From positions 1 to 49,362 of the forward strand of contig JBFELL010000001.1 of assembly GCA_041552135.1 (NCBI GenBank): 49,362 nt of DNA. The letters are read 5' to 3'. This document shows, in pieces, positions 1 to 16,046 of the stretch. Within the stretch, counting starts at the first letter, position 1, and each line of letters opens with the position of its first letter. The position numbers and the translations under genes are program-made. A model generated the notes under the pieces. That model made no database searches and was not told the DNA's origin. It was given only the letters and a program-made list of their open reading frames with translations. The DNA is from Gammaproteobacteria bacterium. GTDB lineage: Bacteria; Pseudomonadota; Gammaproteobacteria; UBA9214.

Positions 1-1
1 C

Positions 2-1169: not shown

Positions 1170-1187
1170 ATATATAAACGCCCTGCC

Positions 1188-3194
1188 GTGCGTTTAGTCT
1201 TGAACACTCAGCAGCCACCTGCCCATCCTGCAATGTTCCGATTCTGGCGGAAATCCCCTGCCCCTGCGGTACGCAAGCCCCCGCGGTCCGAGAATTACGG
1301 CGGTATGCGGCCCAGGGAGCTGCAGGCCAGGCTGGAACTGCTGATAGACCCGTCGCTGAAATACCATCGCGGCATCCATGACACGGCGCTTTTCCTCTCC
1401 AAGTACAACCTGGTCGAACAGAACCGGTTCCTCGCCGCCGTTGAACGTATCGCGCAGCACGACACCGAGCTTGCCTATCGCTTTTGCCGCAGTGCCGCAC
1501 CCGCCATCAGTGGTCTGCCCGATGACGCATGGCAGGCCTGGATTGCACACATCCTGCAGACGCATGCCGTCGAGGGCAGGCAGGCGGCCGTCGGTCTTGC
1601 CGGGGACTTCAGCACCTATCGCAGCCAGCTGACGGACAGTGCATCCGCCGTGTCGTATGCCGAGATTGCCGGCATCATGGAGTCATTTATCCAGGCGCTC
1701 AGTGGCCATCCGCTCAAGCTGGAGACGGGAGAGAGCCGGGCCACGGACATGCAGACACTGTATTTCCCGGAAAGCATCGACCGTTTTACGGACCGCGATG
1801 ATAATTTCAGGCTGTACAAGGCCTGTGCTGTCCACCAGTGGGCCCAGAGCCGGTTCGGAACCTGGGATATCGAGCCGGAACCGCTTGTGCGCAGCTACCC
1901 CGACAGGGAACGGGCACTGCGCCTGTTTCACCGGCTGGAGACCATCCGTCTGGATGCCTGTATCGCACGCGAACTGCCGGGCATGGCCCGCGACATGCGC
2001 CGGTTTCGCATGCCGGACAAGCAGTTGGCAGCCGACTGGCGGGCGGCCGCGCGAAGTCTCGCCGGGCCGCAGAGCGGTGCGGGAGACAGCATCGAGTGGC
2101 TGCAACGCCTGTACGAGCTGGACTATGAACCGCCCGCGCCGCTCTACCAGGCCGTGCTGCAGGCCGTCGCCGAACGGGAGGAAACACAGGACCCCGAGAA
2201 CAGCACACTGCAGCTACCTGCGGAAGAGGCCGCAACCGGTGAGGCGACCGCTGTTAATGACGCCGACACGATTGATGACGAGTCAGTGGAGGATGGAGCG
2301 GGCGCCGAACCCCCGCCGGCTGAAAGTGACTATACCTACGATGAATGGGACCAGTCCCGCCAGCGTTATCGCAAGCACTGGTGCCAGCTCAGGGAGGAGC
2401 CGGTAGCAACCGAACCGAACGCCTTCCGCAGGCTGACGCTGCAGAAATACCATGGACTGCACGTACGGTTGCGACGCAGTTTCGAGGCAATGAGAAAGGA
2501 GAACCGGCGAATTCACCGGGAACCCGACGGCGAGGATATCGATATAGACGCCGTTGTCGATGCCCTGTCGGACCTGCACAGCGGCCTGGACATGAGCGAC
2601 CGGCTGTTTGTTCGCACCAGCCGCGATGAGCGCAATGTTGCCACCCTGTTCCTGCTCGACATGAGCGCATCCACCAGTGGCTGGGTCAACGAGATCGAGC
2701 GCGAGGCCCTGGTATTGATGTGCGAGGCCCTTGAGCAGCTTGGTGATCGCTATGCCGTTTACGGCTTTTCCGGCCGCGGGCACGCCAACTGTATCTCCTA
2801 CCCGGTCAAGGCATTTGGCGAAACCTACAACGAGCCGGTCTGGGAGCGCATCGGTTCCATAAAGGCCCAGCAGTACACGCGCATGGGGGTGGCAATAAGG
2901 CACCACAGTGCCAAGCTGCTTGGTGTTGAGGCGCGTACCCGCCTGCTGGTGGTGCTATCCGATGGCCGACCTGACGACCAGGACGGTTACCGGGGATCCT
3001 ACGGTATTGAAGATACCCGCAAGTCGCTGCTGGAATGCCGGCTGGCCGGCATACACCCGTTTTGCATCACCATCGACAGCGACGCCCGGGACTACCTTCC
3101 CCACATGTTCGGCCGGGTCAATTTCACCGTCATCGACCATGTAGAGAAATTGCCGTACCGTATCGGCGACATCTACCGCAGACTGACCACGTAG
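1188..3194 (+). CDS. von Willebrand factor A domain protein, NorD/CbbO-like
   Basis: The C-terminal vWA domain has a MIDAS DxSxS motif (LLDMSASTSGW) and LLVVLSDGRPDD, preceded by an acidic linker. The start is uncertain: GTG 1188, ATG 1233 or ATG 1305. No MoxR/NorQ-type AAA+ partner is in the window. Confidence 0.8.
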   Translation: MRLVLNTQQPPAHPAMFRFWRKSPAPAVRKPPRSENYGGMRPRELQARLELLIDPSLKYHRGIHDTALFLSKYNLVEQNRFLAAVERIAQHDTELAYRFCRSAAPAISGLPDDAWQAWIAHILQTHAVEGRQAAVGLAGDFSTYRSQLTDSASAVSYAEIAGIMESFIQALSGHPLKLETGESRATDMQTLYFPESIDRFTDRDDNFRLYKACAVHQWAQSRFGTWDIEPEPLVRSYPDRERALRLFHRLETIRLDACIARELPGMARDMRRFRMPDKQLAADWRAAARSLAGPQSGAGDSIEWLQRLYELDYEPPAPLYQAVLQAVAEREETQDPENSTLQLPAEEAATGEATAVNDADTIDDESVEDGAGAEPPPAESDYTYDEWDQSRQRYRKHWCQLREEPVATEPNAFRRLTLQKYHGLHVRLRRSFEAMRKENRRIHREPDGEDIDIDAVVDALSDLHSGLDMSDRLFVRTSRDERNVATLFLLDMSASTSGWVNEIEREALVLMCEALEQLGDRYAVYGFSGRGHANCISYPVKAFGETYNEPVWERIGSIKAQQYTRMGVAIRHHSAKLLGVEARTRLLVVLSDGRPDDQDGYRGSYGIEDTRKSLLECRLAGIHPFCITIDSDARDYLPHMFGRVNFTVIDHVEKLPYRIGDIYRRLTT

Positions 3195-3219
3195 ATACCG
3201 CCGGATACGGCCCTCAACT

Positions 3220-3336
3220 CTAGAGGCCGAGCATACCTAGAACGCCCGAGAAATGCAGACTGACAGCGATAATTGCAAGGCCGATTGCCATGGCCGTCAG
3301 AAATACCATTACATTGTTTCCGCCACTCTGAGTCAT
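3220..3336 (-). CDS. Small single-TM membrane protein (38 aa), candidate
   Basis: ORF MTQSGGNNVMVFLTAMAIGLAIIAVSLHFSGVLGMLGL with GGAGAGGAG 8 nt upstream of its ATG. It is too short for the supplied ORF track and is the last ORF of the minus-strand block. Confidence 0.4.
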   Translation of the reverse strand: MTQSGGNNVMVFLTAMAIGLAIIAVSLHFSGVLGMLGL

Positions 3337-3453
3337 TATTTTGCTCCTCTCCCGTCCGGTTATAAGAAAGTAATAACCCTTTTTGAAACAGACCCGCGTC
3401 TACTGTATCTCGGTCTGACTCCCCAGGGTCCAGTTGTGTCGCACATACCGCCT

Positions 3454-3864
3454 TCAGTGCGACGTTTCCAGCAGTTCTCTGAGATTGCTGCCGACCGAGC
3501 GGTCGCCCTCAACCAGCCAGCGACGCAGCGCACTTGCACCCTCTATCATGAATAACTGTTCCTTATCACCTTCCGGTCGACTGGAAAAGTACAGCTGGCT
3601 GGTGGTTACCTCGTTACTGTCTGCGTCGAAGTGGCTGGCGAGAATCCGTTCCAGCAGGATACCGGCACTCGCAGGCCGCATATCATCGTAGGATGCCAGG
3701 TACCGCACGGCCCCGTATACGTAACACTCCACCAGCGTCCTGGTGCTCAACCGGTTGAACAGCTGCTCCTTCTCGACACCGGTGAGCGCCTCGGCAACAA
3801 ACGGGTCAAGCGTCAGTGATGCCTGGTCCAGATCCGTATCCGTTCTGTTAAATGGCCAAATCAT
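3454..3864 (-). CDS. Hypothetical protein (136 aa)
   Basis: Clean ORF with AGGA 9 nt upstream, starting 31 nt after the upstream GST-like gene stop. I recognise no family. Confidence 0.55.
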   Translation of the reverse strand: MIWPFNRTDTDLDQASLTLDPFVAEALTGVEKEQLFNRLSTRTLVECYVYGAVRYLASYDDMRPASAGILLERILASHFDADSNEVTTSQLYFSSRPEGDKEQLFMIEGASALRRWLVEGDRSVGSNLRELLETSH

Positions 3865-3895
3865 CGATCAGATCCTGTACGCGTGTCAGCTGCAA

Positions 3896-4687
3896 TCAAT
3901 AGTCGTCAATGGATATCGAATTCAGGCGTTTCTGCTTGATATCGGCGAGTTTCGGCAGCAGGTCGTAGGCGACGACATTCTGCCCGGAAAAACTCTTGTG
4001 GGTACGTATTCTGTCGAACCAGGCCTTGATATTCGGGCGCGCGTCGACTAGCTCGCCTTCACCGGCCTCGTACAGCAGGTGTATATAGGCGGTCCAGTGA
4101 ATATCCGCAAAGGAATAATTTCCGATGATGAAGGTGTTTTTGGCCAGCTGGCTGTCAAGCGCATCGAGCGGTGCTTCCAGCGCCTTTCTGGCCGCTTCGA
4201 CGCCGGACGTATTCACCATGTACACAGAATCGACCATCGGGCCGAGAATCTGCTCCTTCACCAGTGTATTGACGTGTGGCCCGACCTCTGTGCAGGCAAT
4301 GTCAGACCAGTAGTTCTGCTCGGCCAGCAGCGCGGCGTTTTTCGGCGGCAGCCGTTTACCCAGGCCGCGCGCCTCGATGTAACTCATGATGCCGGACTCA
4401 CCGGAGACATAGTAGTCCGCTTCCTTGAGTGCCGGCACGATCCCGAGCGGCGAGACCGCCAGGTAATCGCCGCTTTCATCCTCGCCCTCCAGAATATCCA
4501 GGACCGCGGAGTCGGTCTCCATGCCCATCTCTATCGCCGTAATCAGGCACTTGAGCGTGTCTGCATGCCCGGGGAATCCCAGCAGCTGCAGGACATACTG
4601 GGTCTTTTTCATGTCGCCTTCAGAGCCGTAACTGGCATCACTCGACTCAGTCCGGGCAGCCCTGCCAAATGCAAAGAGATCACTCAT
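3896..4687 (-). CDS. Glutathione S-transferase-like protein, paralogue C
   Basis: GST-fold motifs are present: SPLGIVPAL (cis-Pro G-site), GESGIMSYI and FSFADIHW. It is a paralogue of 4753..5466 and 6930..7610. An alternative start is ATG 4612 (MKKTQ). Confidence 0.8.
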   Translation of the reverse strand: MSDLFAFGRAARTESSDASYGSEGDMKKTQYVLQLLGFPGHADTLKCLITAIEMGMETDSAVLDILEGEDESGDYLAVSPLGIVPALKEADYYVSGESGIMSYIEARGLGKRLPPKNAALLAEQNYWSDIACTEVGPHVNTLVKEQILGPMVDSVYMVNTSGVEAARKALEAPLDALDSQLAKNTFIIGNYSFADIHWTAYIHLLYEAGEGELVDARPNIKAWFDRIRTHKSFSGQNVVAYDLLPKLADIKQKRLNSISIDDY

Positions 4688-4752
4688 TCCGGTTCACCAT
4701 TGTTTTTGACGCTGGATTTCAGCGTGATTCAGGTCAGGTACGCCAGCCATGC

Positions 4753-5466
4753 TCAGGCGACGTTTCTCAGTTCCTTGCCCTTGATCTGGTCGAGACTTGG
4801 CAAGGCATCGCAGGGACTTCGGGACCCGTTTTTCCTCGATTTGACCCTGTCAAACCACTGCTTCAGATTGGCATGTTTGCCGATCAGGTCACCATGGCCG
4901 GTGATTTCACAGAAATGCAGGTATGGCGCCCAGTGAATTTCCGCAAAGGAAAAGTCTTCGGCGAAATACTCCCGGCCATCCAGGAACCGGTCTGCAACAG
5001 TGAACACCTGTTCTATCGCCTCCAGTGCCGCATCGATTGCGGCCTGGTCCGGCGTGTAGTCCGGATCTCCCATGGTTTTCAACACCTGCTCGTCCAGCAG
5101 CGTGTTGACGTGGGGCAGCAGCCTGTACTGCCCGACCTCGATCCAGTAGTTTTGCTGACCCAGGCGCGCCGCCTTCCTTGGAGCCAGTGACTGCCCGCCA
5201 CCGCGGATGTCCAGGTAGGGAAGTATGGCTGCCGCACCCGAGGTCACCAGATCGCCTTCACCGAGGCACGGTATTTTCCCGAATGGCGACAGGGCGCGGA
5301 AAGCCGAGCCCTCATCCTCGTGGCCGGTAAGATCCAGCAGGTCCGGGTCGATCTTCACACCCTTCTCTGCTGCCATGTACAGGCATTTGCAGGTATCGAC
5401 ATGCCCGGGAAACCCGCGCATATGGATATTTCCCTGCGTTTTCTTTTTCCTTGAAAAGAGACCCAT
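4753..5466 (-). CDS. Glutathione S-transferase-like protein, paralogue B
   Basis: Contains SPFGKIPCL, SGAAAILPYL and FSFAEIHW. The start is set at ATG 5466 (MGLFSRKKK), which has AAGGA upstream. This is 16 nt after the stop of the small membrane ORF. Confidence 0.8.
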   Translation of the reverse strand: MGLFSRKKKTQGNIHMRGFPGHVDTCKCLYMAAEKGVKIDPDLLDLTGHEDEGSAFRALSPFGKIPCLGEGDLVTSGAAAILPYLDIRGGGQSLAPRKAARLGQQNYWIEVGQYRLLPHVNTLLDEQVLKTMGDPDYTPDQAAIDAALEAIEQVFTVADRFLDGREYFAEDFSFAEIHWAPYLHFCEITGHGDLIGKHANLKQWFDRVKSRKNGSRSPCDALPSLDQIKGKELRNVA

Positions 5467-5482
5467 TTCCTTGCCCCCGGCG

Positions 5483-5689
5483 TCAGTCCTTGAACCACTT
5501 GAATGGCGCTTCACCTGCGATCTTCAGATACAGCGTCACATTGATAATCAGCGCCACCAGCAACACAACACCGCCAAGCAGCCCCATGGCCGGATCCCTG
5601 AAATTCTGGTCAAGTCCGGTAATATTCATGCCGTACATCACCGCGGCTGAAAATATAAGCATTACAACAATTGCCTTGAACGAAGCCAT
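5483..5689 (-). CDS. Small membrane protein, two predicted TM helices (68 aa)
   Basis: Two hydrophobic stretches (AIVVMLIFSAAVMYG and LLGGVVLLVALIINVTLYL) and an AGAGGAG ribosome-binding site. It sits inside the operon. Confidence 0.6.
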   Translation of the reverse strand: MASFKAIVVMLIFSAAVMYGMNITGLDQNFRDPAMGLLGGVVLLVALIINVTLYLKIAGEAPFKWFKD

Positions 5690-5789
5690 TTTGGATCTCC
5701 TCTTTCGATAACCAATTAAGTGGATTTACGTCACCCCTGAAGCGAACCTGCCCGGCCTCGGCTGGCGCGCCCCATCGCCCCTGCGGATC

Positions 5790-6875
5790 CTACTTCCTGC
5801 CTCCCGGCATACTGCTCGCATCCAGGAACTTGTCGAAATGAATGTCTTCCCTTGCCATACCGGCCTTTACCATCACGTCAATCGCGGCATCAATCATTGG
5901 CGGCGGTCCGCAGAGATATCCCTGGCTTTCAGACATATCCACCAGACCCGTGTCGATGTATGCCTGCCGCAGGTAATCCGTGACGAACCCTCGCGCGCCC
6001 TCCCAGCCGGAGTCCTCCGCTTCCTCGGACAGAACCGGCACGAACTCGAACTTGCCTTTCCAGTCGCGCTGCATCTGTTCCATGATGTCCAGGCAGTACA
6101 GGTCCTTCTGTGTGCGGGCGCCGAAAAGGAACAGCACCTCCCGGCTGACACCTTCATTGATGGCACTCTCGAGCATGGCCTTGATAGGGGCCATGCCGCT
6201 GCCCCCTGCCACGCAGACGATTCTTGAATCACCGGGACGCAACCAGAAAGACCCGTAGGGCCCGGTCACTTCCACCGGCTCTCCCGAGCGGTCTTCGGCA
6301 AACAGCCACTCCGTGAACTCGCCGCCCGGAACCAGCCTCACGAAGAAGGTAACTTCCCGATCAGACTCGTTCTCAGGTGCCTTGGCGAAGGAATACGAGC
6401 GTGGCTTGTTGATACTGGCCGTAGCGACCTCTGCATACTGGCCGGCTACAGCGGAGCGCGGGAAATCTTCCTCCGCCTTGATAACCAGTTCGACGACATC
6501 GTGCGTTAGCGGGTTGACACGGGAAATGGTGCCATTGTGCGAGCTGACGCTGACGGTCTGTTCCGTATCTTCCAGCAGGTCCACCTCGATAACGACGTCG
6601 CTCTGGAGTTCTGCCTGACAGGCGAGAATCATCCCGGATTTCAGGTCCTCCTGTTCAAGGACATAAGCAAAATCAGAGAGTTCCTTGACCTTGCCCTCCT
6701 TCAGCTTGCATTTACAGGTACCGCAGCTACCCACCCTGCAGTCATGAGGCCAGTGCAAACCGGCCTCCAGTGCAGACTTCAGCAGGTTGTCTCCGGCCTT
6801 GACACTGACAAGTTGTCCGGATGGCTTGACTTCCGCGCTCCAGTCCTGCTTGCGTTTTTTCAAGAGTCCAAGCAT
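5790..6875 (-). CDS. 2Fe-2S ferredoxin / FAD / NAD(P)H oxidoreductase (XylA/MmoC/BenC-type reductase), copy 1
   Basis: N-terminal plant-type cluster motif CRVGSCGTCKC...ILACQA, flavin site PRSYSFA, and nucleotide site VAGGSGMAP. Confidence 0.9.
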   Translation of the reverse strand: MLGLLKKRKQDWSAEVKPSGQLVSVKAGDNLLKSALEAGLHWPHDCRVGSCGTCKCKLKEGKVKELSDFAYVLEQEDLKSGMILACQAELQSDVVIEVDLLEDTEQTVSVSSHNGTISRVNPLTHDVVELVIKAEEDFPRSAVAGQYAEVATASINKPRSYSFAKAPENESDREVTFFVRLVPGGEFTEWLFAEDRSGEPVEVTGPYGSFWLRPGDSRIVCVAGGSGMAPIKAMLESAINEGVSREVLFLFGARTQKDLYCLDIMEQMQRDWKGKFEFVPVLSEEAEDSGWEGARGFVTDYLRQAYIDTGLVDMSESQGYLCGPPPMIDAAIDVMVKAGMAREDIHFDKFLDASSMPGGRK

Positions 6876-6929
6876 GTTCTTTCCATGATTACTGTTACAC
6901 GTTGCGGGTAGACGGCCTGTATACCGGCA

Positions 6930-7610
6930 TCAGGCGTTGATCTGGATGTCTCGCAGACTGTTGCCCTGTATGTCCCCGGCCGTGGGAAGCACATCGTAGG
7001 CCTTGATTTTTTCCTTGCTGGTGCTCGGGTGCGACTTGATCAGACCCCACCATACTTTCACGGCCGGACGCGACTCGACGATGTCACCGGCCCCCGCCAG
7101 GAAACAGCCCTGTGCCAGCGCGGCCCAGTGAATGTCAGCCAGACTGAAGGCGCCGGCGATATAATCACCACGCATGGAGGCGGATTTCGACTGCAGCTGC
7201 GTGTCGAGCGCGTCAAACCAGCGGGAAACCTCGGCCGTATCTCCATCACCGCCCATCAGTGCAGCAACAGAGGGTTGTGCGAGGTCAGATGCAATGTGTA
7301 TCCACTGGTACATGGCAGTGCGCACCACGGCATTGCGAGGTACCAGCGAGGGTCCGAAACCCTTGTCATCCAGGTAGGACATGATCGCATTGGGGCCGTA
7401 GACAACGAAGTCCACATCCCGGATAACCGGCAGCGAACCGTACGGGGAAATCGATGCTGCCTCTGCGGCATCGCCGCCACCATCCAGACCCACATAGTGG
7501 GACTCAATATCCACGCCCTTCTCTGCAGCAGTAAACAGGCATTTGGCACTGTCCAGACATGCGGGGTTCCCGTAAAATTTCATCTTGTCCTGTAAATGAT
7601 CACCTAACAT
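6930..7610 (-). CDS. Glutathione S-transferase-like protein, paralogue A
   Basis: Contains SPYGSLPVI, GPNAIMSYL and FSLADIHW. ATG 7610 has GAGGAG 7 nt upstream; the longer ORF to 7625 begins at a TTG. Confidence 0.8.
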   Translation of the reverse strand: MLGDHLQDKMKFYGNPACLDSAKCLFTAAEKGVDIESHYVGLDGGGDAAEAASISPYGSLPVIRDVDFVVYGPNAIMSYLDDKGFGPSLVPRNAVVRTAMYQWIHIASDLAQPSVAALMGGDGDTAEVSRWFDALDTQLQSKSASMRGDYIAGAFSLADIHWAALAQGCFLAGAGDIVESRPAVKVWWGLIKSHPSTSKEKIKAYDVLPTAGDIQGNSLRDIQINA

Positions 7611-7705
7611 TTCTATGCTCCTCAATCAGTTCTATTGGTAACAGACTGTTTGGATCATCCCGTCGGATTGCCCTGCTCCGCCGGGATGCCCGAGACTACA
7701 TACGT

Positions 7706-7888
7706 TCAGTCTTCCTCGATCTGCAATGCACCGGACGGACATTGTGCTACGGTAGATCGAATCTGGCTTTCCTCGCCTGCATCGAGATCGATCTTGAATG
7801 CCCCGTCTTCAACCTTGAAAACTTCCGGGCTCCCCGCAACACACTTGCCCGCATGTATACAAACAGATTCATTCCAGGTTACTTTCAT
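7706..7888 (-). CDS. Small Fe-S protein, divergent 4Fe-4S mono-cluster (Fer4_19/DUF1271-like)
   Basis: 60 aa with GGAGG 9 nt upstream. The ligand pattern is C-x-H-x3-C ... C-P (SVCIHAGKC ... AQCPSGAL). Confidence 0.65.
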   Translation of the reverse strand: MKVTWNESVCIHAGKCVAGSPEVFKVEDGAFKIDLDAGEESQIRSTVAQCPSGALQIEED

Positions 7889-7933
7889 TTTTCCAACCTC
7901 CAGTGATGTAACATCAAGTTGACCTGCAGGTTT

Positions 7934-8296
7934 TCAGACGCCGACGACGTCGCCCTTCATCGACCACAGGATGGCAAGTACTTCGTCGTACTCTCTTTGT
8001 CCTATGTCGTTCGATTTCAGTGCTTTCAGCACGTCATCAATAACGGCATTGAATTCCTGGTCATTGATGTTCATTCCGGTGTGGGCACTCAGCATATCCT
8101 TGCCTGTGTACACTTCCGGACCGCCGGTGCCTGCACCGAAAAAGTCGCGGACCATTTTCTTGACATTTTCCGGATCGGAATTGATGTAGCGGTTCTTTAC
8201 CAGCGGATTGCTTGTATGATTCGCCCAGATGTCTTCGGTAATTGCTGCGATTCCGTCAGCACCACCCAGTCTTTCGTAAAGTGTCTTCTCGCCCAT
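7934..8296 (-). CDS. glbN: Group I truncated (2/2) haemoglobin
   Basis: 120 aa. Has an LYERLGG N-terminus and a proximal-His region GGPEVYTGKDMLSAHTGMNI. Confidence 0.85.
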   Translation of the reverse strand: MGEKTLYERLGGADGIAAITEDIWANHTSNPLVKNRYINSDPENVKKMVRDFFGAGTGGPEVYTGKDMLSAHTGMNINDQEFNAVIDDVLKALKSNDIGQREYDEVLAILWSMKGDVVGV

Positions 8297-8335
8297 TTGA
8301 CTGCCCCAGTTGAATGTTTTGTGTCTTTCCGGAAC

Positions 8336-8361
8336 CCCGCACCCGGCATTCCGGGTGCGGG
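8336..8361 (-). other. Perfect 11-bp stem / 4-nt loop between the hydroxylase and haemoglobin genes
   Basis: CCCGCACCCGG-catt-CCGGGTGCGGG. No U-tract follows on the coding (minus) strand, so it is not a canonical intrinsic terminator. Confidence 0.6.
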
Positions 8362-8393
8362 ATCTGCCGCTCGTTCAGCCTGCTTGCATTCTG

Positions 8394-9548
8394 CTATGCA
8401 TAACCAGCCTGACGGTTGATGCGATCGGCAATCTGGCGCTCACCTTCCGAGGCGAACTCCTCATCCCACTTCGCGAGTTCTTTCTTGTAGTACGCGTGGA
8501 ACAGAGGTGGCACCAGTGCCAGGGCAAACAGGGTGAAATAACCCCAGCCGACATCCGGCGCACCCACATCGTCCAGCTCCCAGAAGTGCGTTTCACCGCG
8601 GTCGTGGTGGTCAGCCTGACGGCCGATTTCAATGAAGAACCAGCTCGTGAACATCGTTGCGTTGTCCCATGAATGCCGGTAATCGATCGGCTGGCCTTTC
8701 TCCCGAATGAGACCGTAATGCTCGAGGTAGTTGAGCGTTTCCAGCTCGAAATTCGAGATGAACCAGACGATGGCGAGGCAGCCGATGCCGATCCAGCCAC
8801 CGGCAAACCAGAACAGCAGCAGGGTCGGCAGGCTCATGGCATAGCCACGCAACCAGCGGTTCTCCCAGGTCAGGAACGGCTTGCCAAGACGCTGCAGGCG
8901 CTGCTGCTCCATGCGGTAGAGAAAACGCGACTGCCCGATACCCGCCAGCGGGTAGTGGCGATAGAGGCTGCGACCACGCGGCGATGTCGCCGGATCGTCC
9001 TCATGTGCCAGCTCCAGGTGGTGGTTGTAGACGTGCGCGTAACTGAAATGGGCCTTGCCGCTCAGCGCCATCATCATGCGCGAGATAACGAAGGTAAAGC
9101 CCTTGGTATGGCTCAGCTCGTGACCGTAAATAATACCGATACCGGCAAAAATACCGCTCGAAATTGCTGCCCCCACCAGATTCAATCCGCTGATACCATT
9201 CTGGTATGGCAGGATACCGAACAGCATGTGATCGAAGCCGGCACTTATCGGCACACCATTGACATACTGGAAGATGCGCCAGGCCAGTGCCACCTGCAGC
9301 AGGACGAAAACGCCAAGCATGGTGTACATCACGGTATTCTGCAGCCATGGAATGCCGTTGGTTTCGCCATTTTCATCCACACCGGCACCGGTTGTATGGA
9401 AACGGAGCATGGTATCTATGACGATACCAACACCCAGCAACATCAGACCTACCCAGGAGAACATGCCGCCCGCCAACACACCGAGCATCGCAACGATGAT
9501 CAGGATTGGTGCGAACCAGTACCTGGCATTGATTAACAGTTTTTTCAT
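8394..9548 (-). CDS. Integral-membrane di-iron hydroxylase, AlkB/XylM family
   Basis: 384 aa with several TM helices. His boxes are HELSHTK, HVYNHH followed by DDPATS, NYLEHYGL and ADHH. GAGGTGA ribosome-binding site. Confidence 0.9.
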   Translation of the reverse strand: MKKLLINARYWFAPILIIVAMLGVLAGGMFSWVGLMLLGVGIVIDTMLRFHTTGAGVDENGETNGIPWLQNTVMYTMLGVFVLLQVALAWRIFQYVNGVPISAGFDHMLFGILPYQNGISGLNLVGAAISSGIFAGIGIIYGHELSHTKGFTFVISRMMMALSGKAHFSYAHVYNHHLELAHEDDPATSPRGRSLYRHYPLAGIGQSRFLYRMEQQRLQRLGKPFLTWENRWLRGYAMSLPTLLLFWFAGGWIGIGCLAIVWFISNFELETLNYLEHYGLIREKGQPIDYRHSWDNATMFTSWFFIEIGRQADHHDRGETHFWELDDVGAPDVGWGYFTLFALALVPPLFHAYYKKELAKWDEEFASEGERQIADRINRQAGYA

Positions 9549-9824: not shown

Positions 9825-9913
9825 ATATACAGCGGCCGGATTCGAGGATTGCTGCTTTAGTGCAGGCAGGGAGACGGGCCACACGATACATGGCCCCGGG
9901 ACGGCCGGCAACC

Positions 9914-10540
9914 TCAGTCGCTTTCGGCCAGCATAACGACACGTACGATATCGGACAAGGTGCTGGCTTTCAGCTTTTCCATAATACTTGCCCGGTGCCA
10001 CTCAACGGTACGGAAACTGATCGACAGGTCGTTGGCTATCTGCTTGTTGCGCTTGCCGGCGACAAGGCCTTCCATGACCTGGCGTTCTCTTGGCGTGAGA
10101 CGGGCCATGTTCTCCACGGCCTGCCTGCGCAGGTCTGTTTTCTGACGGACCCTTTTTTCGCTATTGAGGCACTCGTGGATGCGGGCCAGTAATTCTTCAC
10201 TGTCAAACGGTTTTTCCACGAAGTCACAGGCGCCGCCCTTCATGACACGCACAGCGGTAGGCACATCGGCGTGTCCGGTGATAACAATAATGGGAAGATC
10301 AACCTGCCTTTCGCGCAGCGCGTCCTGCAGCTCCGGGCCGCTCATGTCCGGCATGCAGACATCAAGCAACAGGCAGCCGGGGCCGAGCGTATCAACACTT
10401 TCCAGAAACGCCTGTGCCGTTTCGAAGCAGCAGGAATTCAGCCCTTCCGACTTGACAAGCATCCTCAGGCCTTTGCGTACAGGCTCCTCGTCATCCACGA
10501 TATAGACGGTCTGGTTCGTGTCAGGTGCATTATCACTCAC
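9914..10540 (-). CDS. Response regulator, FixJ/NarL (LuxR-type HTH) family
   Basis: Receiver motifs VYIVDDEEPVR, LLLDVCMPDMSG and FVEKP, plus the HTH LTPRERQVMEGLVAGKRNKQIANDLSISFRTVEWHR. GTG 10540 overlaps the kinase stop by 8 nt. The rest of ORF 9914..10690 lies inside the kinase gene. Confidence 0.9.
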   Translation of the reverse strand: MSDNAPDTNQTVYIVDDEEPVRKGLRMLVKSEGLNSCCFETAQAFLESVDTLGPGCLLLDVCMPDMSGPELQDALRERQVDLPIIVITGHADVPTAVRVMKGGACDFVEKPFDSEELLARIHECLNSEKRVRQKTDLRRQAVENMARLTPRERQVMEGLVAGKRNKQIANDLSISFRTVEWHRASIMEKLKASTLSDIVRVVMLAESD

Positions 10541-12575
10541 GGCCGGATACCGGTAGCGTAAAACCGAAGATCGCCCCGCCCTGGGCATTGTTATCGGCCT
10601 CGAGCTTGCCGCCGTGGGCATCGATAATGGAGCGCGTAATGGCCAGCCCCATGCCCATGCCATCGGGCTTGGTGGTGAAGAAGGGGTCAAATACCTTCGC
10701 TATCAGCTCCTTGCTGATACCCGGCCCCGAATCACTAACCGTCACCCTGATGAACTTCGGGTCCGCTATGGTCGTACGTATGGTCAGTCTGCGACGCTTT
10801 TGTTTGTTGGCCTGCATGGCCTCGATCGCGTTGTGGACCAGATTGAGGACAACCTGCTCCAGCAGGACCCTGTCCCCGGTTATGTCTGGCAGCGGTTCAG
10901 ACAAATCGAGCTTTATCGGCAGACTGAACCAGCGTGCCTCGATATCTATCAGCGGTATGACGGTACGGATTAGCTCATTCACAACGACACGCGAGTGCTG
11001 CACGTCTTCATTACGCACGAAGTTGCGCAGGCGAATCACAATTTCGCGTGCCCGGGACGCCTGCTGGGATATGTCTGCCAGCGACTCCTCTATGTCGTCA
11101 TGCCCCGCGGCCCCTGCCTTGAACAGTTTCAGGCAGCCGGTACTCAAACCGGCAATCGCCGCCAGCGGCTGTGCAAGCTCATGGGCGATCTGGCTGCTCA
11201 ACTCACCCATGGTGGTGACCCGCGACACATGCGCCAGCTCCAGCATGTGCTTTTTCTCTCTTTCCTCAATCTGCTTGCGTTCCGTAATGTCGGTAAATAT
11301 TCCAAGGCAGCCCAGATAGCCTTCATCCGGATCGTATATCCGCTTGGGCGAGGTGAGTGTGATTATCTTGCGACCATCCTTGGTGACCCACGCCGTTTCG
11401 TAGCGCTTGATCGGGTTGTCTGCCGGAGCGGACATTCTCTCGCCCATTTCAGTCTTGTCTTCCTGGTGCACGAATTCGAGCAAATGACGACCGACAACCT
11501 CCTCGCTTGAATAGCCGAAGATGCGGCTGAAGCTCTCGTTCACATAGGTGATGACGTGCTGCTCATCGGTCAGCGCAAGCGCCTCGCTCATGGTCTGGAC
11601 GAGTTCGCGGTAGCGCCGTTCACTCACCCTCAGGGCATCCTCCACCTCGAGGCGTTCCTTTTCTGCGGAAACGCGACCGGTGACGTCCTGCAGGATAAGG
11701 GTTGCCCCGAGCTGCCCTGTGCGATCGACCAGCGATGAAGCGACAACCTCCACATACCGATTCGATCCCACCGACTCGCTGACATCGACGACAGCCGGTG
11801 CCGGTCGTTTTGAAGGTGCGACGCAGCGGGCGACGAGCTCATGCAGCTTGCTCGATTCGGTACGGGAGAAGATGGAGCCGAGCGTGACCCCCAGCGCGTC
11901 GCGCTCGGTTATGTTCAGCATCTGCCCGGCATAGCGGTTCATACCGAGGATGACGCCCTGCACATCCACATTCAGAACACCGATCGGCGCATTGTCCAGC
12001 AGGCGGTCAAGGTAGCGTGAGACCGGGGGCTTTCCGGTATGGATATCCCTCATGCGACTCTGCGAGGCGGCGATAACACCGCTATAGCTGCGGCGTTTCT
12101 GTACGCGCAAAACAGCCTCGCCCAGCGCGTTCGCGAGTTCATCCATGTGATCGACCGGCCACGGCGTTACGTCGCTGCCGATAAACGGCGAGAACCTGAG
12201 CACCTGCCTGAGCCGCTCGTGGCGCTCCGGCTCGGTGAGTATCATCACCGGAAGGTCGTTTCCGGCAGATTTGATGCGCTGTGCCAGCCTGACCGGTTCC
12301 CTCACCCTGAGACCCAGCACCACGACATCCAGCTGCTCGAGTTCATCCAGCAACTGCTGTGTATCGGTCATGCGGTCGAAACTGATCCGGCCAGCGAGTT
12401 GCGCTGCAAGTTCCTCGCCTGTGTCGGCATCCACTTCCAAAAGTGCGACATGGCCCGAACGCTGATCCGGATCAGCGCTGCCTGCAGTCGGCGCAGCCGG
12501 TGTACTGGCGGGCTGTTCCCCTGTGTTGTGGCTGGAGACGACACTCAGCCGGGGGGTATGTTTTTCAGTGGCCAT
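10533..12575 (-). CDS. Soluble sensor histidine kinase with receiver-like N-terminus and two PAS segments
   Basis: H-box SQIAHELAQPLAAI and ATPase boxes LVHNAIEAM, DSGPGI and GMGMGLAI. Has PAS-like repeats and no TM segment. Confidence 0.9.
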   Translation of the reverse strand: MATEKHTPRLSVVSSHNTGEQPASTPAAPTAGSADPDQRSGHVALLEVDADTGEELAAQLAGRISFDRMTDTQQLLDELEQLDVVVLGLRVREPVRLAQRIKSAGNDLPVMILTEPERHERLRQVLRFSPFIGSDVTPWPVDHMDELANALGEAVLRVQKRRSYSGVIAASQSRMRDIHTGKPPVSRYLDRLLDNAPIGVLNVDVQGVILGMNRYAGQMLNITERDALGVTLGSIFSRTESSKLHELVARCVAPSKRPAPAVVDVSESVGSNRYVEVVASSLVDRTGQLGATLILQDVTGRVSAEKERLEVEDALRVSERRYRELVQTMSEALALTDEQHVITYVNESFSRIFGYSSEEVVGRHLLEFVHQEDKTEMGERMSAPADNPIKRYETAWVTKDGRKIITLTSPKRIYDPDEGYLGCLGIFTDITERKQIEEREKKHMLELAHVSRVTTMGELSSQIAHELAQPLAAIAGLSTGCLKLFKAGAAGHDDIEESLADISQQASRAREIVIRLRNFVRNEDVQHSRVVVNELIRTVIPLIDIEARWFSLPIKLDLSEPLPDITGDRVLLEQVVLNLVHNAIEAMQANKQKRRRLTIRTTIADPKFIRVTVSDSGPGISKELIAKVFDPFFTTKPDGMGMGLAITRSIIDAHGGKLEADNNAQGGAIFGFTLPVSGRE

Positions 12576-12580: not shown

Positions 12581-13777
12581 CTAGCTCAGAATCGGTTGAC
12601 CCAGCAGCGCCCGCCCGGTCCAGATGCGCAATATATCAGTCGTCGGCGCCATGACGTGGGCAGCGCGGGCATCGCGTAACAGTTTATGCAACACGGATTC
12701 CTGCCGATAGCCGATGCCCCCGGTCAGCGTCATGACCTCGTTGACCATATTGACGGCACACTCGGCGACCTCGGCCTTGGTCGTGAACACCGCCGGCAAT
12801 GCGTCAGGATCACCGGCATCGAAGGATGCCGCCGCGTGGTACGTCAGGCGGCGCGTGCGCTCCAGCATCCCCCAGAGGCAGCCCATACGATGCTGGAGCA
12901 CGGGCAACTGCGCAAGGCCCGAGCCGGTTTCCGAGTACTGGCGATGGATCAGATGTTCGCGCGCCTCTTCCAGCGCGGCGCTGGCTATGCCAAGGTAGGT
13001 GCCGGACATGGCCATGAGAAAATATGGCGCTACGACCTGGAATACGTACCAGATATGGTCACCCTCTTCTCCCAGGAGGTTCTTGCTTGGCACCAGTACG
13101 CTGTCCAGCGCCAGGGCGCATGACGAGTTGCCTCGCATGCCGAGGCCCTTCCACGGATCGCCCCATTTGAGACCCTCGGCACCCTGCTCGACCACGATGC
13201 AGGAGAACTGTCCCAGCGGCGCCTCGGGATCGGCGGCGACGGTTGAAACCACATAGGAATCCGCATACCCGCCGTTGGTGACAAAAGTCTTTGTCCCGGT
13301 GAGCCGGTAGGACTCGGGCGACACCGCTTCCAGCCTGGTTTGCGGGATATAAAAGTGAGAGCCGGTACCGGCCTCACTGAGGGACAGCGTCGTCAGGTGC
13401 CGCCCCTCGACAATCGGTTCCAGGTAGCGGGTGCACTGGTCGGGCGTGGCCTTGGCGGCCAGTACCGCGGCACCCACGCAGTGCATGCCGAAGCACATGG
13501 CGGTAGAGGCACACTCCTGGCCGAGCGCTTCGCAAACCATGGTGAGGCCGAAGGATCCCTGGCCAAGCCCGCCGTATTCGGCCGGTATGGTGAGCCCGCC
13601 AAGACCGGCCTGCTGCAGGGCGCGCAGCCCCTGCTCCGGCCATTCGGCGTTGCTGTCAATCCGCTCCGCGTTCGGTGCCACGATATCGTTGGCGATATCG
13701 CGTACCCGCTCCAGAATGGTATCCAGATCCATGGGGTAGAAATGTGTATCCGGCACCCCCCGGTCTGTTGGCAGCAT
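12581..13777 (-). CDS. Acyl-CoA dehydrogenase-fold flavoprotein
   Basis: 398 aa with the ACAD layout and C-terminal GGIGY...LLRDARAAHVMAPTTD. Its stop is 5 nt before the kinase start. Confidence 0.85.
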   Translation of the reverse strand: MLPTDRGVPDTHFYPMDLDTILERVRDIANDIVAPNAERIDSNAEWPEQGLRALQQAGLGGLTIPAEYGGLGQGSFGLTMVCEALGQECASTAMCFGMHCVGAAVLAAKATPDQCTRYLEPIVEGRHLTTLSLSEAGTGSHFYIPQTRLEAVSPESYRLTGTKTFVTNGGYADSYVVSTVAADPEAPLGQFSCIVVEQGAEGLKWGDPWKGLGMRGNSSCALALDSVLVPSKNLLGEEGDHIWYVFQVVAPYFLMAMSGTYLGIASAALEEAREHLIHRQYSETGSGLAQLPVLQHRMGCLWGMLERTRRLTYHAAASFDAGDPDALPAVFTTKAEVAECAVNMVNEVMTLTGGIGYRQESVLHKLLRDARAAHVMAPTTDILRIWTGRALLGQPILS

Positions 13778-15887: not shown

Positions 15888-16046
15888 CCTGGAAGGATAT
15901 ACCAGTTTTGATGTGCGCCGGGGCGATGCCGGTCTTTTCACGCGTCGACGGGGCTTCCGCTACCGGCAACAAGCACGGTGCACGTCATTGCATGCCCGGA
16001 AAGCCCCGGTGAAAGCACATTTTGCCGCTGTGCCTGCACATCAGAT

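What the first reader, a model, noticed from the sequence alone, without database searches (positions are those of the whole stretch)
3220..9548. AlkB/XylM-family membrane hydroxylase operon with a non-canonical partner set
Ten co-directional ORFs are separated by gaps of 97, 45, 95, 54, 100, 16, 65, 31 and 117 nt. In order they are: an AlkB-family di-iron hydroxylase, a group I truncated haemoglobin and a 60-aa mono-cluster Fe-S protein. Then come GST-like A, a ferredoxin-FNR (XylA-type) reductase, a 2-TM miniprotein, GST-like B, GST-like C, a 136-aa unknown and a 38-aa TM peptide. There is no rubredoxin or rubredoxin reductase, the classical AlkB partners. Characterised GST-dependent epoxide routes (isoprene, styrene) use soluble di-iron or flavin monooxygenases, not an AlkB-type enzyme. 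AlkB and XylM are known to epoxidise alkenes. So one hypothesis is membrane epoxidation or hydroxylation of a hydrophobic substrate coupled to thiol conjugation. I know of no characterised system with this composition.
Basis: partly seen in the sequence, partly recalled or inferred. Interest (0 to 1): 0.75.

Follow-up and report, generated by a model that had tools for sequence, protein, structure and literature searches.

The report
Candidate membrane dimethylsulfide monooxygenase operon
A conserved ten-gene operon is built around a distant AlkB/XylM-type membrane iron enzyme; its counterpart in the marine bacterium Methylophaga thiooxydans lies next to the methanethiol oxidase genes and is induced about 100-fold by dimethylsulfide, so it may be the unidentified enzyme that starts bacterial breakdown of this climate-active gas.

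Summary
All ten co-directional ORFs, their domains and the nine gaps are as described, and no rubredoxin is present. The cluster extends upstream to about 17.2 kb and downstream to a convergent VWA gene.

The hydroxylase belongs to a tight clade far from AlkB and XylM (26-33% identity). It was found at 373 places in species-representative genomes. One of the nine AlkB iron-ligand histidines is replaced by an invariant glutamine.

The full ten-gene order recurs in five other genomes. The core (hydroxylase, GST-A, 2-TM peptide, usually with ferredoxin, reductase and globin) recurs in about 40 loci.

The three GST-like proteins lack the canonical Glu-Ser glutathione-binding pair. GST-A has an invariant Cys at the catalytic position; GST-B and GST-C have His. 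Epoxide conjugation is therefore not supported.

In Methylophaga thiooxydans DMS010 the orthologous cluster (hydroxylase 71% identical) lies 7.7 kb from methanethiol oxidase. In a related genome it is interleaved with the whole methanethiol oxidase cluster. Published RNA-seq shows 30-136-fold induction on dimethylsulfide. No known DMS-cleaving gene exists in those genomes.

Best reading (about 0.5): a membrane di-iron DMS monooxygenase. This is inferred by orthology. No methanethiol oxidase gene is seen in the window.

The parts
8394..9548 (-). Hydroxylase (384 aa), an AlkB/XylM-superfamily membrane di-iron enzyme of a distinct clade
   Evidence: PF00487, E=3.6e-25. No NCBIfam model matches. 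FtAlkB 8sbb matches at E=7.9e-27 by sequence. AF2 model pLDDT 72.5; Foldseek TM 0.70 to FtAlkB, with no other significant match. His boxes HELSH, HVYNHH and NYLEHYG are present; box 3 reads GRQADHH, with Gln311 in place of FtAlkB His311, an Fe2 ligand. 71% identical to the M. thiooxydans 'fatty acid desaturase domain protein'.
7934..8296 (-). Group 1 truncated haemoglobin (120 aa)
   Evidence: Bac_globin. PDB group 1 trHb matches at E=8.8e-36. Follows the hydroxylase in 20 of 84 loci.
7706..7888 (-). Small ferredoxin (60 aa), Fer4_19 type, with conserved CxHxGxC...CPSGA (3 Cys + His)
   Evidence: PF06902, E=1.3e-16. Alignment of 21 orthologues. Present in 29 of 84 loci.
6930..7610 (-). GST-like A (226 aa from the ATG); invariant Cys at the catalytic position and a non-canonical G-site
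   Evidence: GST_N hits. Profile against PDB: Phi-class GST 1.5e-22, SspA 5e-15. Cys18 aligns with the Phi catalytic Ser, and 'ES' is replaced by 'G-x'. It is among the most constant partners of the hydroxylase, found in 40 of 84 loci.
5790..6875 (-). NADH:ferredoxin-type reductase (361 aa), N-terminal [2Fe-2S] plus FAD/NAD domains, XylA type
   Evidence: Fer2+FAD_binding_6+NAD_binding_1. BenC/MmoC-like, below the curated cut-offs. 44% identical to XylA of pWW0 and to the reductase-ferredoxin part of the Polaromonas AlkB fusion.
5483..5689 (-). 68-aa peptide with two hydrophobic segments (read as 2 TM), conserved (MASFKA...FKxAGExPFxWF)
   Evidence: No Pfam hit. Orthologues in 34 of 84 loci, always after the reductase or GST-A.
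4753..5466 (-). GST-like B (237 aa from the ATG); His at the catalytic position
   Evidence: GST_C/GST_N hits. Paralogue of GST-A and GST-C. The orthologue in Methylophagaceae lies between the response regulator and GST-C.
3896..4687 (-). GST-like C (263 aa) with a conserved N-terminal extension; His at the catalytic position
   Evidence: GST_C, E=1.6e-9. Profile against Phi-class GST, E=1.7e-32. The 46-51% orthologues in M. thiooxydans and GCA_034110895.1 lie directly upstream of persulfide dioxygenase, SqrB and SulP.
3454..3864 (-). 136-aa soluble protein of unknown fold (motifs YvYGAvrYLAsYD and FMiEGAsALRrW)
   Evidence: No Pfam or NCBIfam hit. Conserved in 15 loci. The single-sequence AF2 model is unusable, pLDDT 46.8.
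3220..3336 (-). 38-aa hydrophobic peptide
   Evidence: tblastn orthologues at 43-67% identity, in the same position, in 14 loci. Called as a gene on the Logan contig L097.
9741..9826 (-). Conserved operator-like motifs upstream of the hydroxylase: TCACGT-N7-CGNATTTAC at 9741-9762 and ATACGTAGAAATACC at 9812-9826
   Evidence: Conserved in the upstream regions of 7 loci. Unique in the window apart from a related site at 1157-1171, in front of the VWA gene.
9914..10546 (-). FixJ/StyR-family response regulator
   Evidence: PDB FixJ 4.4e-48, StyR (1yio) 1.1e-41. Linked to the operon in 11 loci.
10533..12575 (-). PAS sensor histidine kinase (680 aa) with a FixL-type kinase core
   Evidence: PDB chimeras carrying the FixL kinase match at 3.8e-57. 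Orthologues carry PAS/HisKA/HATPase_c domains.
12581..13777 (-). Acyl-CoA-dehydrogenase-fold flavoprotein (398 aa), Rv1679/FadE16-like
   Evidence: Four ACAD Pfam domains. NCBIfam best hit Rv1679 family, 254 bits, below the cut-off of 600. Linked to the kinase and regulator in 13 loci, Methylophaga included.
14790..15941 (-). Second XylA-type reductase (383 aa)
   Evidence: Fer2+FAD+NAD domains. 45% identical to the operon reductase.
16047..17183 (-). Outer-membrane beta-barrel of the Phenol_MetA_deg family; a possible entry channel for a hydrophobic or volatile substrate
   Evidence: PF13557, E=7e-7. Relatives carry a FadL/Toluene_X channel instead.
1188..3194 (+). VWA protein (653-668 aa), NorD/CbbO-like, convergent with the operon
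   Evidence: VWA domain at residues 488-635. Adjacent to the operon in 11 loci, and paired with a CbbQ/NorQ-type AAA+ ATPase in the Methylophagaceae-type loci. No CbbQ homologue in the window.

Best explanation
The locus encodes a multi-component, membrane-bound di-iron monooxygenase of a new clade of the AlkB/XylM superfamily. Its most likely physiological substrate is dimethylsulfide (DMS) or a very similar small methylated sulfur volatile.

Proposed mechanism:
1. The substrate enters through an outer-membrane channel: the MetA-type barrel here, FadL/Toluene_X in relatives.
2. NADH electrons pass through the XylA-type reductase (FAD, [2Fe-2S]) and probably the 60-aa Fer4_19 ferredoxin to the di-iron centre of the hydroxylase.
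3. The hydroxylase activates O2 and hydroxylates a methyl C-H of DMS. The resulting hemithioacetal falls apart into methanethiol and formaldehyde.
4. The truncated haemoglobin supplies or buffers O2, or protects against sulfide or NO.
5. GST-A and the 68-aa 2-TM peptide behave like obligate accessory subunits. GST-A, with its catalytic-position Cys, and GST-B/C probably handle thiol products or mixed disulfides rather than conjugate glutathione.
6. The VWA protein (with a NorQ-like ATPase in relatives) may mature the metal site.
7. The adjacent FixL/FixJ-StyR-type two-component system switches the operon on through the conserved upstream motifs.

What is shown: family membership, partner set, conservation, orthology to the Methylophaga cluster, that cluster's linkage to methanethiol oxidase, and its induction on DMS.

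What is inferred: the substrate, the C-hydroxylation chemistry and every accessory role.
For: 1. Enzyme class. Pfam, PDB and fold matches to AlkB, with 8 of 9 His ligands plus Glu-His kept. The reductase is 44% identical to XylA.

2. Orthology. The window hydroxylase is 71% identical over its full length to EEF81234.1, 'Fatty acid desaturase domain protein' of M. thiooxydans. Both loci share hydroxylase, trHb, Fer4_19, GST-A, reductase, 2-TM peptide, the ACAD-kinase-regulator module, GST-B, GST-C and VWA.

3. Genomic linkage to methanethiol oxidation.
- In M. thiooxydans DMS010 (L094), mtoX and SCO1/MauG lie 7.7 kb upstream of the hydroxylase.
- In GCA_034110895.1 (L092 + L088) the order is mtoX, SCO1/MauG, TlpA, hydrolase, ACAD, kinase, regulator, GST-B, GST-C, persulfide dioxygenase, SqrB, SulP, two small ORFs, (CbbQ, VWA), then hydroxylase, trHb, Fd, GST-A and reductase. 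The modules of this system are thus interleaved with the published 'mto cluster'.

4. Expression (PMC6548844, Table S6), DMS versus methanol:
- FA desaturase domain protein, 1359 vs 10
- NAD-binding oxidoreductase, 618 vs 12
- glbN, 601 vs 21
- hydrocarbon-type porin, 1469 vs 18
- mtoX, 17350 vs 37
The SCO4226-like protein of the same cluster (MDMS009_82) is 9.3-fold up in the DMS proteome and 100% identical to L094:15857-16129.

5. A missing enzyme. dmoA and ddhA are absent from all six Methylophaga genomes examined. mto is present only in M. thiooxydans and M. sulfidovorans, the two named species in which I found the operon. The primary DMS enzyme was unidentified in 2019 and was still drawn as '?' in December 2025.

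6. Chemistry. AlkB is known to carry out heteroatom demethylation and sulfoxidation (my own knowledge, not tested here).

7. Host range. M. thiooxydans is reported to grow only on C1 compounds and fructose, which argues against an alkane-catabolic role there.
Against: - No methanethiol oxidase gene is seen in the window, nor within 10 kb of the operon in the window's closest relatives (L005-L008, L019). The thioredoxin-like gene at the window edge resembles the mto-cluster TlpA only weakly, and its closest relatives are not next to mtoX.
- Assigning locus tags MDMS009_226, _61, _199 and _906 to the L094 genes rests on matching product names. Only MDMS009_82 was verified by sequence.
- Induction on DMS could be secondary, for example to sulfide, peroxide or membrane stress, as the authors of the RNA-seq study themselves proposed.
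- An earlier study, as cited there, found no DMS monooxygenase activity in DMS-grown M. thiooxydans extracts. A membrane multi-component enzyme could easily be lost in such assays.
- Many carriers hold a second, identical hydroxylase copy next to a light-sensor-type regulator and fabA. DMS catabolism does not predict this.
- No biochemical datum exists for any member of the clade.
Confidence: 0.5

Rival explanations
1. It is a hydrocarbon (alkane, alkene or methyl-aromatic) hydroxylase or epoxidase, like AlkB or XylM but with unusual electron-transfer partners. The GST-like proteins would detoxify or conjugate reactive products.
For: Superfamily membership and fold. The best E-value among plasmid genes goes to the active ferredoxin-reductase-AlkB fusion class and to an AlkB paired with a 2Fe-2S reductase. 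Hydrophobic-compound outer-membrane channels lie in the cluster. Databases name many members 'alkane 1-monooxygenase'. The regulator resembles StyR, the styrene-responsive regulator.
Against: Identity to AlkB and XylM is only 26-33%, and no NCBIfam model matches. The conserved neighbourhood holds no alcohol dehydrogenase, aldehyde dehydrogenase or acyl-CoA ligase, unlike the Polaromonas alkane operon. The GST-like proteins lack the canonical glutathione-binding Glu-Ser. The orthologous operon occurs in a restricted C1 user, is induced by DMS and is interleaved with methanethiol oxidase genes.
Confidence: 0.15
2. It modifies an endogenous membrane lipid or quinone (desaturation or hydroxylation) as a response to oxidative, sulfide or light stress. 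Its DMS induction in Methylophaga would be a side effect of peroxide and sulfide made by methanethiol oxidase. This is the interpretation offered by the authors of the RNA-seq study.
For: FA_desaturase superfamily. The authors' own reading. In 26 loci a copy lies divergently next to a MerR/B12-binding (LitR/CarH-like) regulator and fabA. That copy is identical to the operon copy in the same genome.
Against: The motifs and fold are those of the AlkB/XylM hydroxylases (NYxEHYG; TM 0.70 to FtAlkB), not of acyl-lipid desaturases. An outer-membrane uptake channel, a dedicated sensor kinase and physical interleaving with mtoX, PDO, Sqr and SulP suggest catabolism of an external substrate. The 26 MerR/fabA loci come from related small-genome lineages, so they may represent few independent events.
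Confidence: 0.12
3. It acts on organosulfur volatiles but with a different reaction or substrate. Examples: S-oxygenation of DMS to DMSO, or oxidation of dimethyl disulfide, methanethiol or another thioether, as detoxification rather than the carbon-yielding C-S cleavage step.
For: The same genomic and expression links to methanethiol metabolism. GST-B and GST-C lie next to persulfide dioxygenase and Sqr. The altered Fe2 ligand, Gln311, may tune reactivity. AlkB is known to sulfoxidise thioethers (my own knowledge).
Against: The host still needs a DMS-to-methanethiol step. It lacks dmoA, and no DMS-induced methyltransferase was found. Hydroxylation of the methyl carbon is the simplest way to fill that gap.
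Confidence: 0.12

Closest known systems
Xylene monooxygenase XylM/XylA (TOL plasmid pWW0)
   Same: A membrane di-iron hydroxylase of about 370-385 aa that aligns over its full length (98% of the query). It is partnered with a single [2Fe-2S]-FAD-NAD reductase, without rubredoxin.
   Different: The hydroxylases are only 26% identical. XylMA needs no small ferredoxin, globin, GST-like protein or 2-TM peptide. XylM keeps the first His of box 3, where this clade has Gln. The xyl operon carries benzyl alcohol and benzaldehyde dehydrogenases.
AlkB alkane 1-monooxygenase (FtAlkB structures 8sbb/8f6t; ferredoxin-reductase-AlkB fusions such as Polaromonas pPNAP01)
   Same: Fold (TM 0.70), His boxes 1 and 2, NYxEHYG, and the Glu-His pair at Fe2. 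The fusion class shows that AlkB-type enzymes can be driven by a ferredoxin-reductase module 44% identical to this reductase.
   Different: Identity is 30-33%, and only over the catalytic core. There is no rubredoxin or rubredoxin reductase. The Fe2 ligand His311 is replaced by Gln. Alkane-catabolic neighbours are absent.
DMS monooxygenase DmoAB (Hyphomicrobium); multicomponent DsoABCDEF (Acinetobacter)
   Same: The proposed overall reaction, DMS + O2 + NADH to methanethiol + formaldehyde, is that of DmoA. The reductase type resembles that described for Dso.
   Different: They are unrelated proteins. As I recall, DmoA is a soluble FMNH2-dependent luciferase-type enzyme. Dso is a soluble phenol-hydroxylase-type di-iron enzyme that makes DMSO and DMSO2. 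dmoA is absent from Methylophaga.
Glutathione-dependent epoxide routes (isoprene iso cluster; styrene-oxide GST)
   Same: A monooxygenase encoded together with more than one GST-fold protein.
   Different: From my own knowledge, those routes use soluble di-iron or flavin monooxygenases, conjugating GSTs with a normal glutathione site, and dedicated dehydrogenase and CoA-transferase genes. Here the G-site Glu-Ser is missing and none of those genes is present.
Particulate methane monooxygenase with bacteriohemerythrin; NorQ/NorD maturation of nitric oxide reductase
   Same: Functional analogies only, both from my own knowledge. A soluble O2-binding protein is proposed to feed a membrane monooxygenase. 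A MoxR-type ATPase/VWA pair is needed to insert a non-haem iron into a membrane enzyme. Here the counterparts are a truncated haemoglobin in the operon and a VWA protein (plus a CbbQ/NorQ-like ATPase in relatives) beside it.
   Different: There is no homology between the oxygenases. Neither analogy has been tested for this system.

Membership tests
AlkB/XylM membrane di-iron hydroxylases (class III di-iron, FA_desaturase superfamily) | PF00487 domain and a six-helix membrane fold like FtAlkB | tested here: met
   PF00487, E=3.6e-25. Foldseek 8f6t/8sbb TM 0.69-0.70, E<=1.9e-7, the only significant matches.
AlkB/XylM membrane di-iron hydroxylases (class III di-iron, FA_desaturase superfamily) | Nine conserved histidine ligands (HxxxH, HxxxHH, NYxEH, HxxHH) plus the Glu next to the fourth-box His | tested here: not met
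   Eight His and the Glu-His pair are present. The first His of the last box (FtAlkB His311, an Fe2 ligand) is Gln311. The motif GRQ[AG]DHHD is conserved in at least 98% of 83 family members, whereas XylM and AlkB keep His.
AlkB sensu stricto (alkane 1-monooxygenase) | Rubredoxin and rubredoxin reductase as electron donors | tested here: not met
   No rubredoxin motif in any frame of the window. The operon encodes a XylA-type reductase and a Fer4_19 ferredoxin.
AlkB sensu stricto (alkane 1-monooxygenase) | Match to a curated protein-family model, and alkane-catabolic neighbours (alcohol and aldehyde dehydrogenase, acyl-CoA ligase) | tested here: not met
   No NCBIfam model matched the hydroxylase at E<=0.01. 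No such neighbours in the window, unlike Polaromonas.
XylM-type (xylene/alkyl-aromatic monooxygenase) | Single [2Fe-2S]-FAD-NAD reductase partner; close sequence relationship to XylM | tested here: inconclusive
   The reductase criterion is met (44% to XylA). The hydroxylase is only 26% identical to XylM and branches far from it.
Canonical glutathione S-transferases | Thioredoxin-like N domain plus helical C domain | tested here: met
   GST_N/GST_C Pfam hits for all three. Profiles match Phi-class GST structures at 1.5e-22 (GST-A) and 1.7e-32 (GST-C).
Canonical glutathione S-transferases | G-site Glu-Ser pair binding the gamma-glutamyl group, and a catalytic Ser or Tyr | tested here: not met
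   'ES' is replaced by G-P/T in GST-A, G-A in GST-B and G-E in GST-C. The catalytic position is an invariant Cys in GST-A and His in GST-B/C.
Group 1 truncated haemoglobins | Sequence match to solved group 1 trHb structures over the full length | tested here: met
   8uzu/8ugz/7tt9, E about 1e-35, residues 6-119.
DMS monooxygenase DmoA family | Luciferase-like FMNH2-dependent monooxygenase | tested here: not met
   No luciferase-like domain among the operon proteins. The proposal is 'works like', not 'is a member'.
Glutathione-dependent epoxide catabolism (isoprene/styrene type) | Soluble di-iron or flavin epoxidase, conjugating GST, dehydrogenase and CoA-transferase genes | tested here: not met
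   None of these domains occurs in the window cluster.
MoxR-VWA (NorQ/NorD, CbbQ/CbbO) maturation pairs | AAA+ CbbQ/NorQ ATPase adjacent to a C-terminal-VWA protein | tested here: inconclusive
   A VWA protein is present at 1188-3194. The CbbQ partner is adjacent in Methylophagaceae-type loci, but no homologue is found in the window.

The most novel reading that the evidence does not exclude
This clade is the unidentified primary DMS-degrading enzyme of marine methylotrophs and sulfur oxidisers. It would be a membrane di-iron DMS monooxygenase with a modified (Gln-containing) iron site. It would work as a complex with a Cys-type GST-fold subunit, a 2-TM peptide, a dedicated ferredoxin and a truncated haemoglobin, and would feed methanethiol to MtoX. 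Many of the marine metagenome genes now labelled 'alkane 1-monooxygenase' would then be DMS-cycle genes.
Probability: 0.45. Interest if true: 0.9.

Novelty: new variant of a known kind. Interest (0 to 1): 0.8.

Why it matters
Dimethylsulfide is the main biogenic sulfur gas leaving the ocean, and bacterial consumption controls how much escapes. The enzyme that converts DMS to methanethiol in Methylophaga-type bacteria has remained unidentified; a cobalamin methyltransferase was postulated but never found. A 2019 omics paper and a December 2025 preprint both say so.

If this operon encodes that step, four things follow:
- It gives a testable gene for a long-standing gap.
- It supplies a new marker for DMS consumption. 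The family was found at 373 places in species-representative genomes and is abundant in marine metagenomes.
- Genes now annotated as alkane hydroxylases, and counted as such in ocean hydrocarbon-cycle surveys, would need re-reading.
- The known chemistry and architecture of AlkB-type enzymes would widen: a Gln iron ligand, and GST-fold, globin and micro-peptide partners.

Even if the substrate proves different, the conserved partner set has no characterised counterpart for this enzyme class that I could find.

Tried and rejected
1. The thioredoxin-like gene cut by the window's left edge (2-439) as a sign of an adjacent methanethiol oxidase cluster. It is 36% identical to the mto-cluster TlpA. 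However, a metagenome scan showed that its closest relatives (58-68%) have no mtoX or hydroxylase within 10 kb. Only one distant relative, L140, does. Not used as evidence.

2. Extending the window leftwards through exact protein look-up. The only contig found (L097, Logan SRR26459374) is identical to window 62-9549 and ends in the same gene.

3. A nitroalkane or NO reading (ACAD-like = nitroalkane oxidase, NMO = nitronate monooxygenase, trHbN = NO dioxygenase). NMO is absent from the window. The ACAD best matches the Rv1679 family, and only below the cut-off. This reading also explains neither the DMS induction nor the mtoX linkage.

4. Homology between the 136-aa protein and the 134/135-aa ORFs of the Methylophaga loci. 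hhalign probability was 0.1%.

5. Structure of the 136-aa protein. The single-sequence AF2 model had pLDDT 46.8, so no fold search was made.

6. Terminator, promoter and Rfam scans. No intergenic terminators beyond chance, no sigma-70 consensus upstream of the hydroxylase, and no Rfam family in 1-18000. Co-transcription therefore remains inferred from spacing and conserved order.

7. Literature searches for a characterised system of this composition, or for a DMS/AlkB connection, found nothing. The library lacks most subscription journals, so prior description cannot be excluded.

Full report
**1. The observation**

With the ATG starts of GST-A (7610) and GST-B (5466), the nine gaps are exactly 97, 45, 95, 54, 100, 16, 65, 31 and 117 nt.

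Pfam gives:
- FA_desaturase for the 384-aa protein
- Bac_globin for the 120-aa protein
- Fer4_19 for the 60-aa protein
- GST_N/GST_C for three paralogous proteins
- Fer2+FAD_binding_6+NAD_binding_1 for the 361-aa reductase
- nothing for the 68-, 136- and 38-aa products

NCBIfam has no model for the hydroxylase and only sub-threshold hits for the others. The globin matches solved group 1 truncated haemoglobins at E about 1e-35. The reductase is 44% identical to XylA of pWW0. No rubredoxin motif exists in any frame of the window.

The cluster is larger than reported. Upstream on the same strand lie a FixJ/StyR-type response regulator, a PAS histidine kinase with a FixL-type core, an acyl-CoA-dehydrogenase-fold protein, a second XylA-type reductase and a Phenol_MetA_deg outer-membrane barrel, reaching 17183. 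Downstream, convergent, lies a 668-aa VWA protein.

**2. The hydroxylase**

By sequence it matches only the two FtAlkB entries in the PDB (E=8e-27). An alignment-based AF2 model (pLDDT 72.5) superposes on FtAlkB with TM 0.70 and on nothing else.

Against all PLSDB plasmids, it aligns end to end with XylM-type proteins at 26-29% identity and over the catalytic core with AlkBs at 30-33%. The best E-value goes to the ferredoxin-reductase-AlkB fusion of Polaromonas. That class is known to be active (PMC8918992).

In a neighbour-joining tree the family is a tight clade on a long branch, away from both XylM and AlkB.

His boxes 1 and 2, NYLEHYG and the Glu-His pair are kept. The first His of the last box, however, is an invariant Gln in this family (GRQ[AG]DHHD). 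In FtAlkB that residue is His311, one of the four His ligands of Fe2 (PMC10113152).

So the protein belongs to the superfamily but not to a characterised clade. One defining feature, the nine-His site, is not met.

**3. Recurrence**

The protein database returned 1245 relatives. The best is 93% identical, and a large group lies at 69-77%.

A scan of one genome per GTDB species found 373 encoding places. Almost all of the 80 best loci, the only ones listed by name, are marine or sulfur-oxidising Gammaproteobacteria: Methylophaga, Cocleimonas, Thiogranum, sponge-associated 'Porisulfidus' and many unnamed MAGs.

tblastn of the window's proteins against 84 loci shows the following:
- The full ten-gene order recurs in L005-L008 and L019.
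- A reduced form occurs in L009-L017: hydroxylase, GST-A, 2-TM peptide, GST-B, GST-C, 136-aa protein, 38-aa peptide. It has no globin, ferredoxin or reductase.
- The core occurs in about 40 loci: hydroxylase, (globin), ferredoxin, GST-A, reductase, 2-TM peptide.

GST-A and the 2-TM peptide stay beside the hydroxylase even where the reductase is elsewhere, as in L009-L017, L039 and L062.

**4. The GST-like proteins**

Profiles of GST-A and GST-C hit Phi-class plant GSTs best (1.5e-22 and 1.7e-32), then SspA. In the alignments, the invariant Cys18 of GST-A sits on the Phi catalytic Ser. GST-B and GST-C have His there.

In all three, the Glu-Ser pair that binds the gamma-glutamyl group of glutathione is replaced by Gly-x. 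This fits thiol-transferase-type or non-catalytic GST-fold proteins. It argues against conjugation of an epoxide.

**5. The link to dimethylsulfide**

*Published expression.* M. sulfidovorans, which grows on DMS, carries the core operon. A full-text search led to Kröber and Schäfer 2019 (PMC6548844). Among the transcripts most induced in M. thiooxydans on DMS versus methanol, they list:
- an NAD-binding oxidoreductase, 618 vs 12
- glbN, 601 vs 21
- a hydrocarbon-type porin, 1469 vs 18
- methanethiol oxidase mtoX, 17350 vs 37

They read the desaturase as membrane repair. They also state that the primary DMS enzyme is still missing.

*Orthology.* The M. thiooxydans protein of that name (EEF81234.1) belongs to this family and is 71% identical to the window's hydroxylase.

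*Gene order in DMS010.* Its locus on scaffold GG657883.1 (L094) reads:
- (SCO1/MauG, mtoX), 6PGD, (LysR), two small ORFs, (CbbQ, VWA)
- hydroxylase, trHb, Fer4_19, GST-A, reductase, 2-TM peptide
- FadL, second globin, SCO4226-like, NMO, 398-aa protein, hydrolase, ACAD

In another strain the cluster continues with kinase, regulator, GST-B and GST-C (L089).

*Proteome check.* The SCO4226-like ORF is 100% identical to MDMS009_82, which is 9.3-fold up in the DMS proteome. This is the one locus-tag assignment I verified by sequence.

*Interleaving in a related genome.* In GCA_034110895.1 the modules are interleaved with the published 'mto cluster':
- mtoX, SCO1/MauG, TlpA
- hydrolase, ACAD, kinase, regulator, GST-B, GST-C
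- PDO, SqrB, SulP
- (CbbQ, VWA), then hydroxylase and the rest of the operon

*The missing enzyme.* dmoA and ddhA are absent from all six Methylophaga genomes compared. mto occurs only in the two species where I found the operon. A December 2025 preprint still shows the DMS-to-methanethiol step as dmoA or an unidentified methyltransferase. No paper in the library connects DMS with AlkB/XylM-type enzymes.

**6. Mechanism proposed**

Hydroxylating a methyl group of DMS gives a hemithioacetal, which decomposes to methanethiol and formaldehyde. This is the reaction needed upstream of MtoX, and it lies within the known range of AlkB-type chemistry (demethylation of methyl ethers, sulfoxidation; my own knowledge).

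Electrons would flow from NADH through the reductase and the Fer4_19 ferredoxin to the di-iron site. In that ferredoxin, three Cys and a His are conserved.

Inferred roles:
- The globin is read as an O2 supplier or protector.
- The VWA protein, with CbbQ in relatives, is read as a maturation factor by analogy with NorQD.
- GST-A and the 2-TM peptide are read as accessory subunits.
- GST-B and GST-C, which sit next to PDO and Sqr in Methylophagaceae, are read as thiol or persulfide handlers.

Conserved motifs upstream of the hydroxylase (9741-9762 and 9812-9826) have one related copy in front of the VWA gene (1157-1171). They are candidate sites for the adjacent response regulator.

All of these roles are inferences.

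**7. Limits**

- The window has no mtoX, and neither do the 10-kb flanks of its closest relatives.
- The thioredoxin-like gene at the left edge is not reliable evidence for an adjacent mto cluster.
- DMS induction could be indirect.
- Extracts of DMS-grown cells reportedly lacked DMS monooxygenase activity.
- In many small genomes a second hydroxylase copy lies next to a MerR/B12-binding regulator and fabA. That copy is identical to the operon copy, down to the coding-sequence borders. This fits a lipid- or light-related role at least as well as DMS catabolism.

I therefore put the DMS monooxygenase reading at about 0.5, hydrocarbon oxidation at 0.15, lipid or stress modification at 0.12, and other organosulfur chemistry at 0.12.

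**8. Verdict**

The finding is real and conserved, and I found no description of it in the literature searched. It is a new variant of the AlkB/XylM kind. It has an altered iron site and a partner set without a characterised counterpart. Independent genomic and expression evidence ties it to an open question in the marine sulfur cycle. Interest: 0.8.

Noticed in passing
L020/L021, L023/L030, L025/L027, L029/L045, L031/L032, L036/L038, L040/L041, L047/L048 (hydroxylase at about 10001-11140 in each): Genomes with two hydroxylase genes hold 100% identical proteins. DNA identity of 99.6-100% starts about 10 nt before the start codon and ends 1-90 nt after the stop. One copy heads the globin-ferredoxin-GST-reductase operon. 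The other lies divergently next to a MerR/B12-binding (LitR/CarH-like) regulator and fabA. This looks like gene conversion keeping one enzyme under two regulatory regimes.
   Followed up: partly
window 13778-14789: About 1 kb without a credible ORF on either strand, between the ACAD-like gene and the second reductase. It has no Rfam match. It could be a decayed gene or a regulatory region.
   Followed up: partly
window 14790-17183 (minus strand): A second XylA-type reductase (45% identical to the operon's) and a Phenol_MetA_deg outer-membrane barrel lie upstream of the ACAD-kinase-regulator module. Neither is present at this place in the closest relative, L019.
   Followed up: partly
window 1-17000 versus 20000-38000: G+C is 0.55-0.63 across the operon region but 0.63-0.70 in the housekeeping stretch 20-38 kb (a carbamate-kinase-family gene, OTCase, transhydrogenase and others). 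This is compatible with horizontal acquisition of the cluster.
   Followed up: no
window 2-439 (+) and 627-950 (-): A TlpA/AhpC-type thioredoxin-like gene is cut by the window start. A 107-aa ORF without family matches lies between it and the VWA gene. The closest metagenomic relatives of the TlpA-like gene are not linked to mtoX or to the hydroxylase.
   Followed up: yes
L008 16550-19288 (Cocleimonas): A 912-aa NAD-type formate-dehydrogenase-alpha-like protein (Fer2_4 + 4Fe-4S + molybdopterin domains) lies directly downstream of the ten-gene operon, on the opposite strand. This would fit a pathway that releases a C1 unit.
   Followed up: no
L094 5909-6760; L001 1168-2043; L088 5772-6453: Two tandem paralogous ORFs of about 134 aa, with no family match, sit between the regulator or SulP genes and the CbbQ-VWA pair in Methylophagaceae-type loci. 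They are not related to the window's 136-aa protein.
   Followed up: partly
window 40861-44313 (+): A 1150-aa fusion of an MFS transporter, an acyltransferase and an AMP-binding enzyme (a lysophospholipid transporter/acyl-ACP synthetase-type arrangement) in a lower-G+C patch. It is unrelated to the finding.
   Followed up: no
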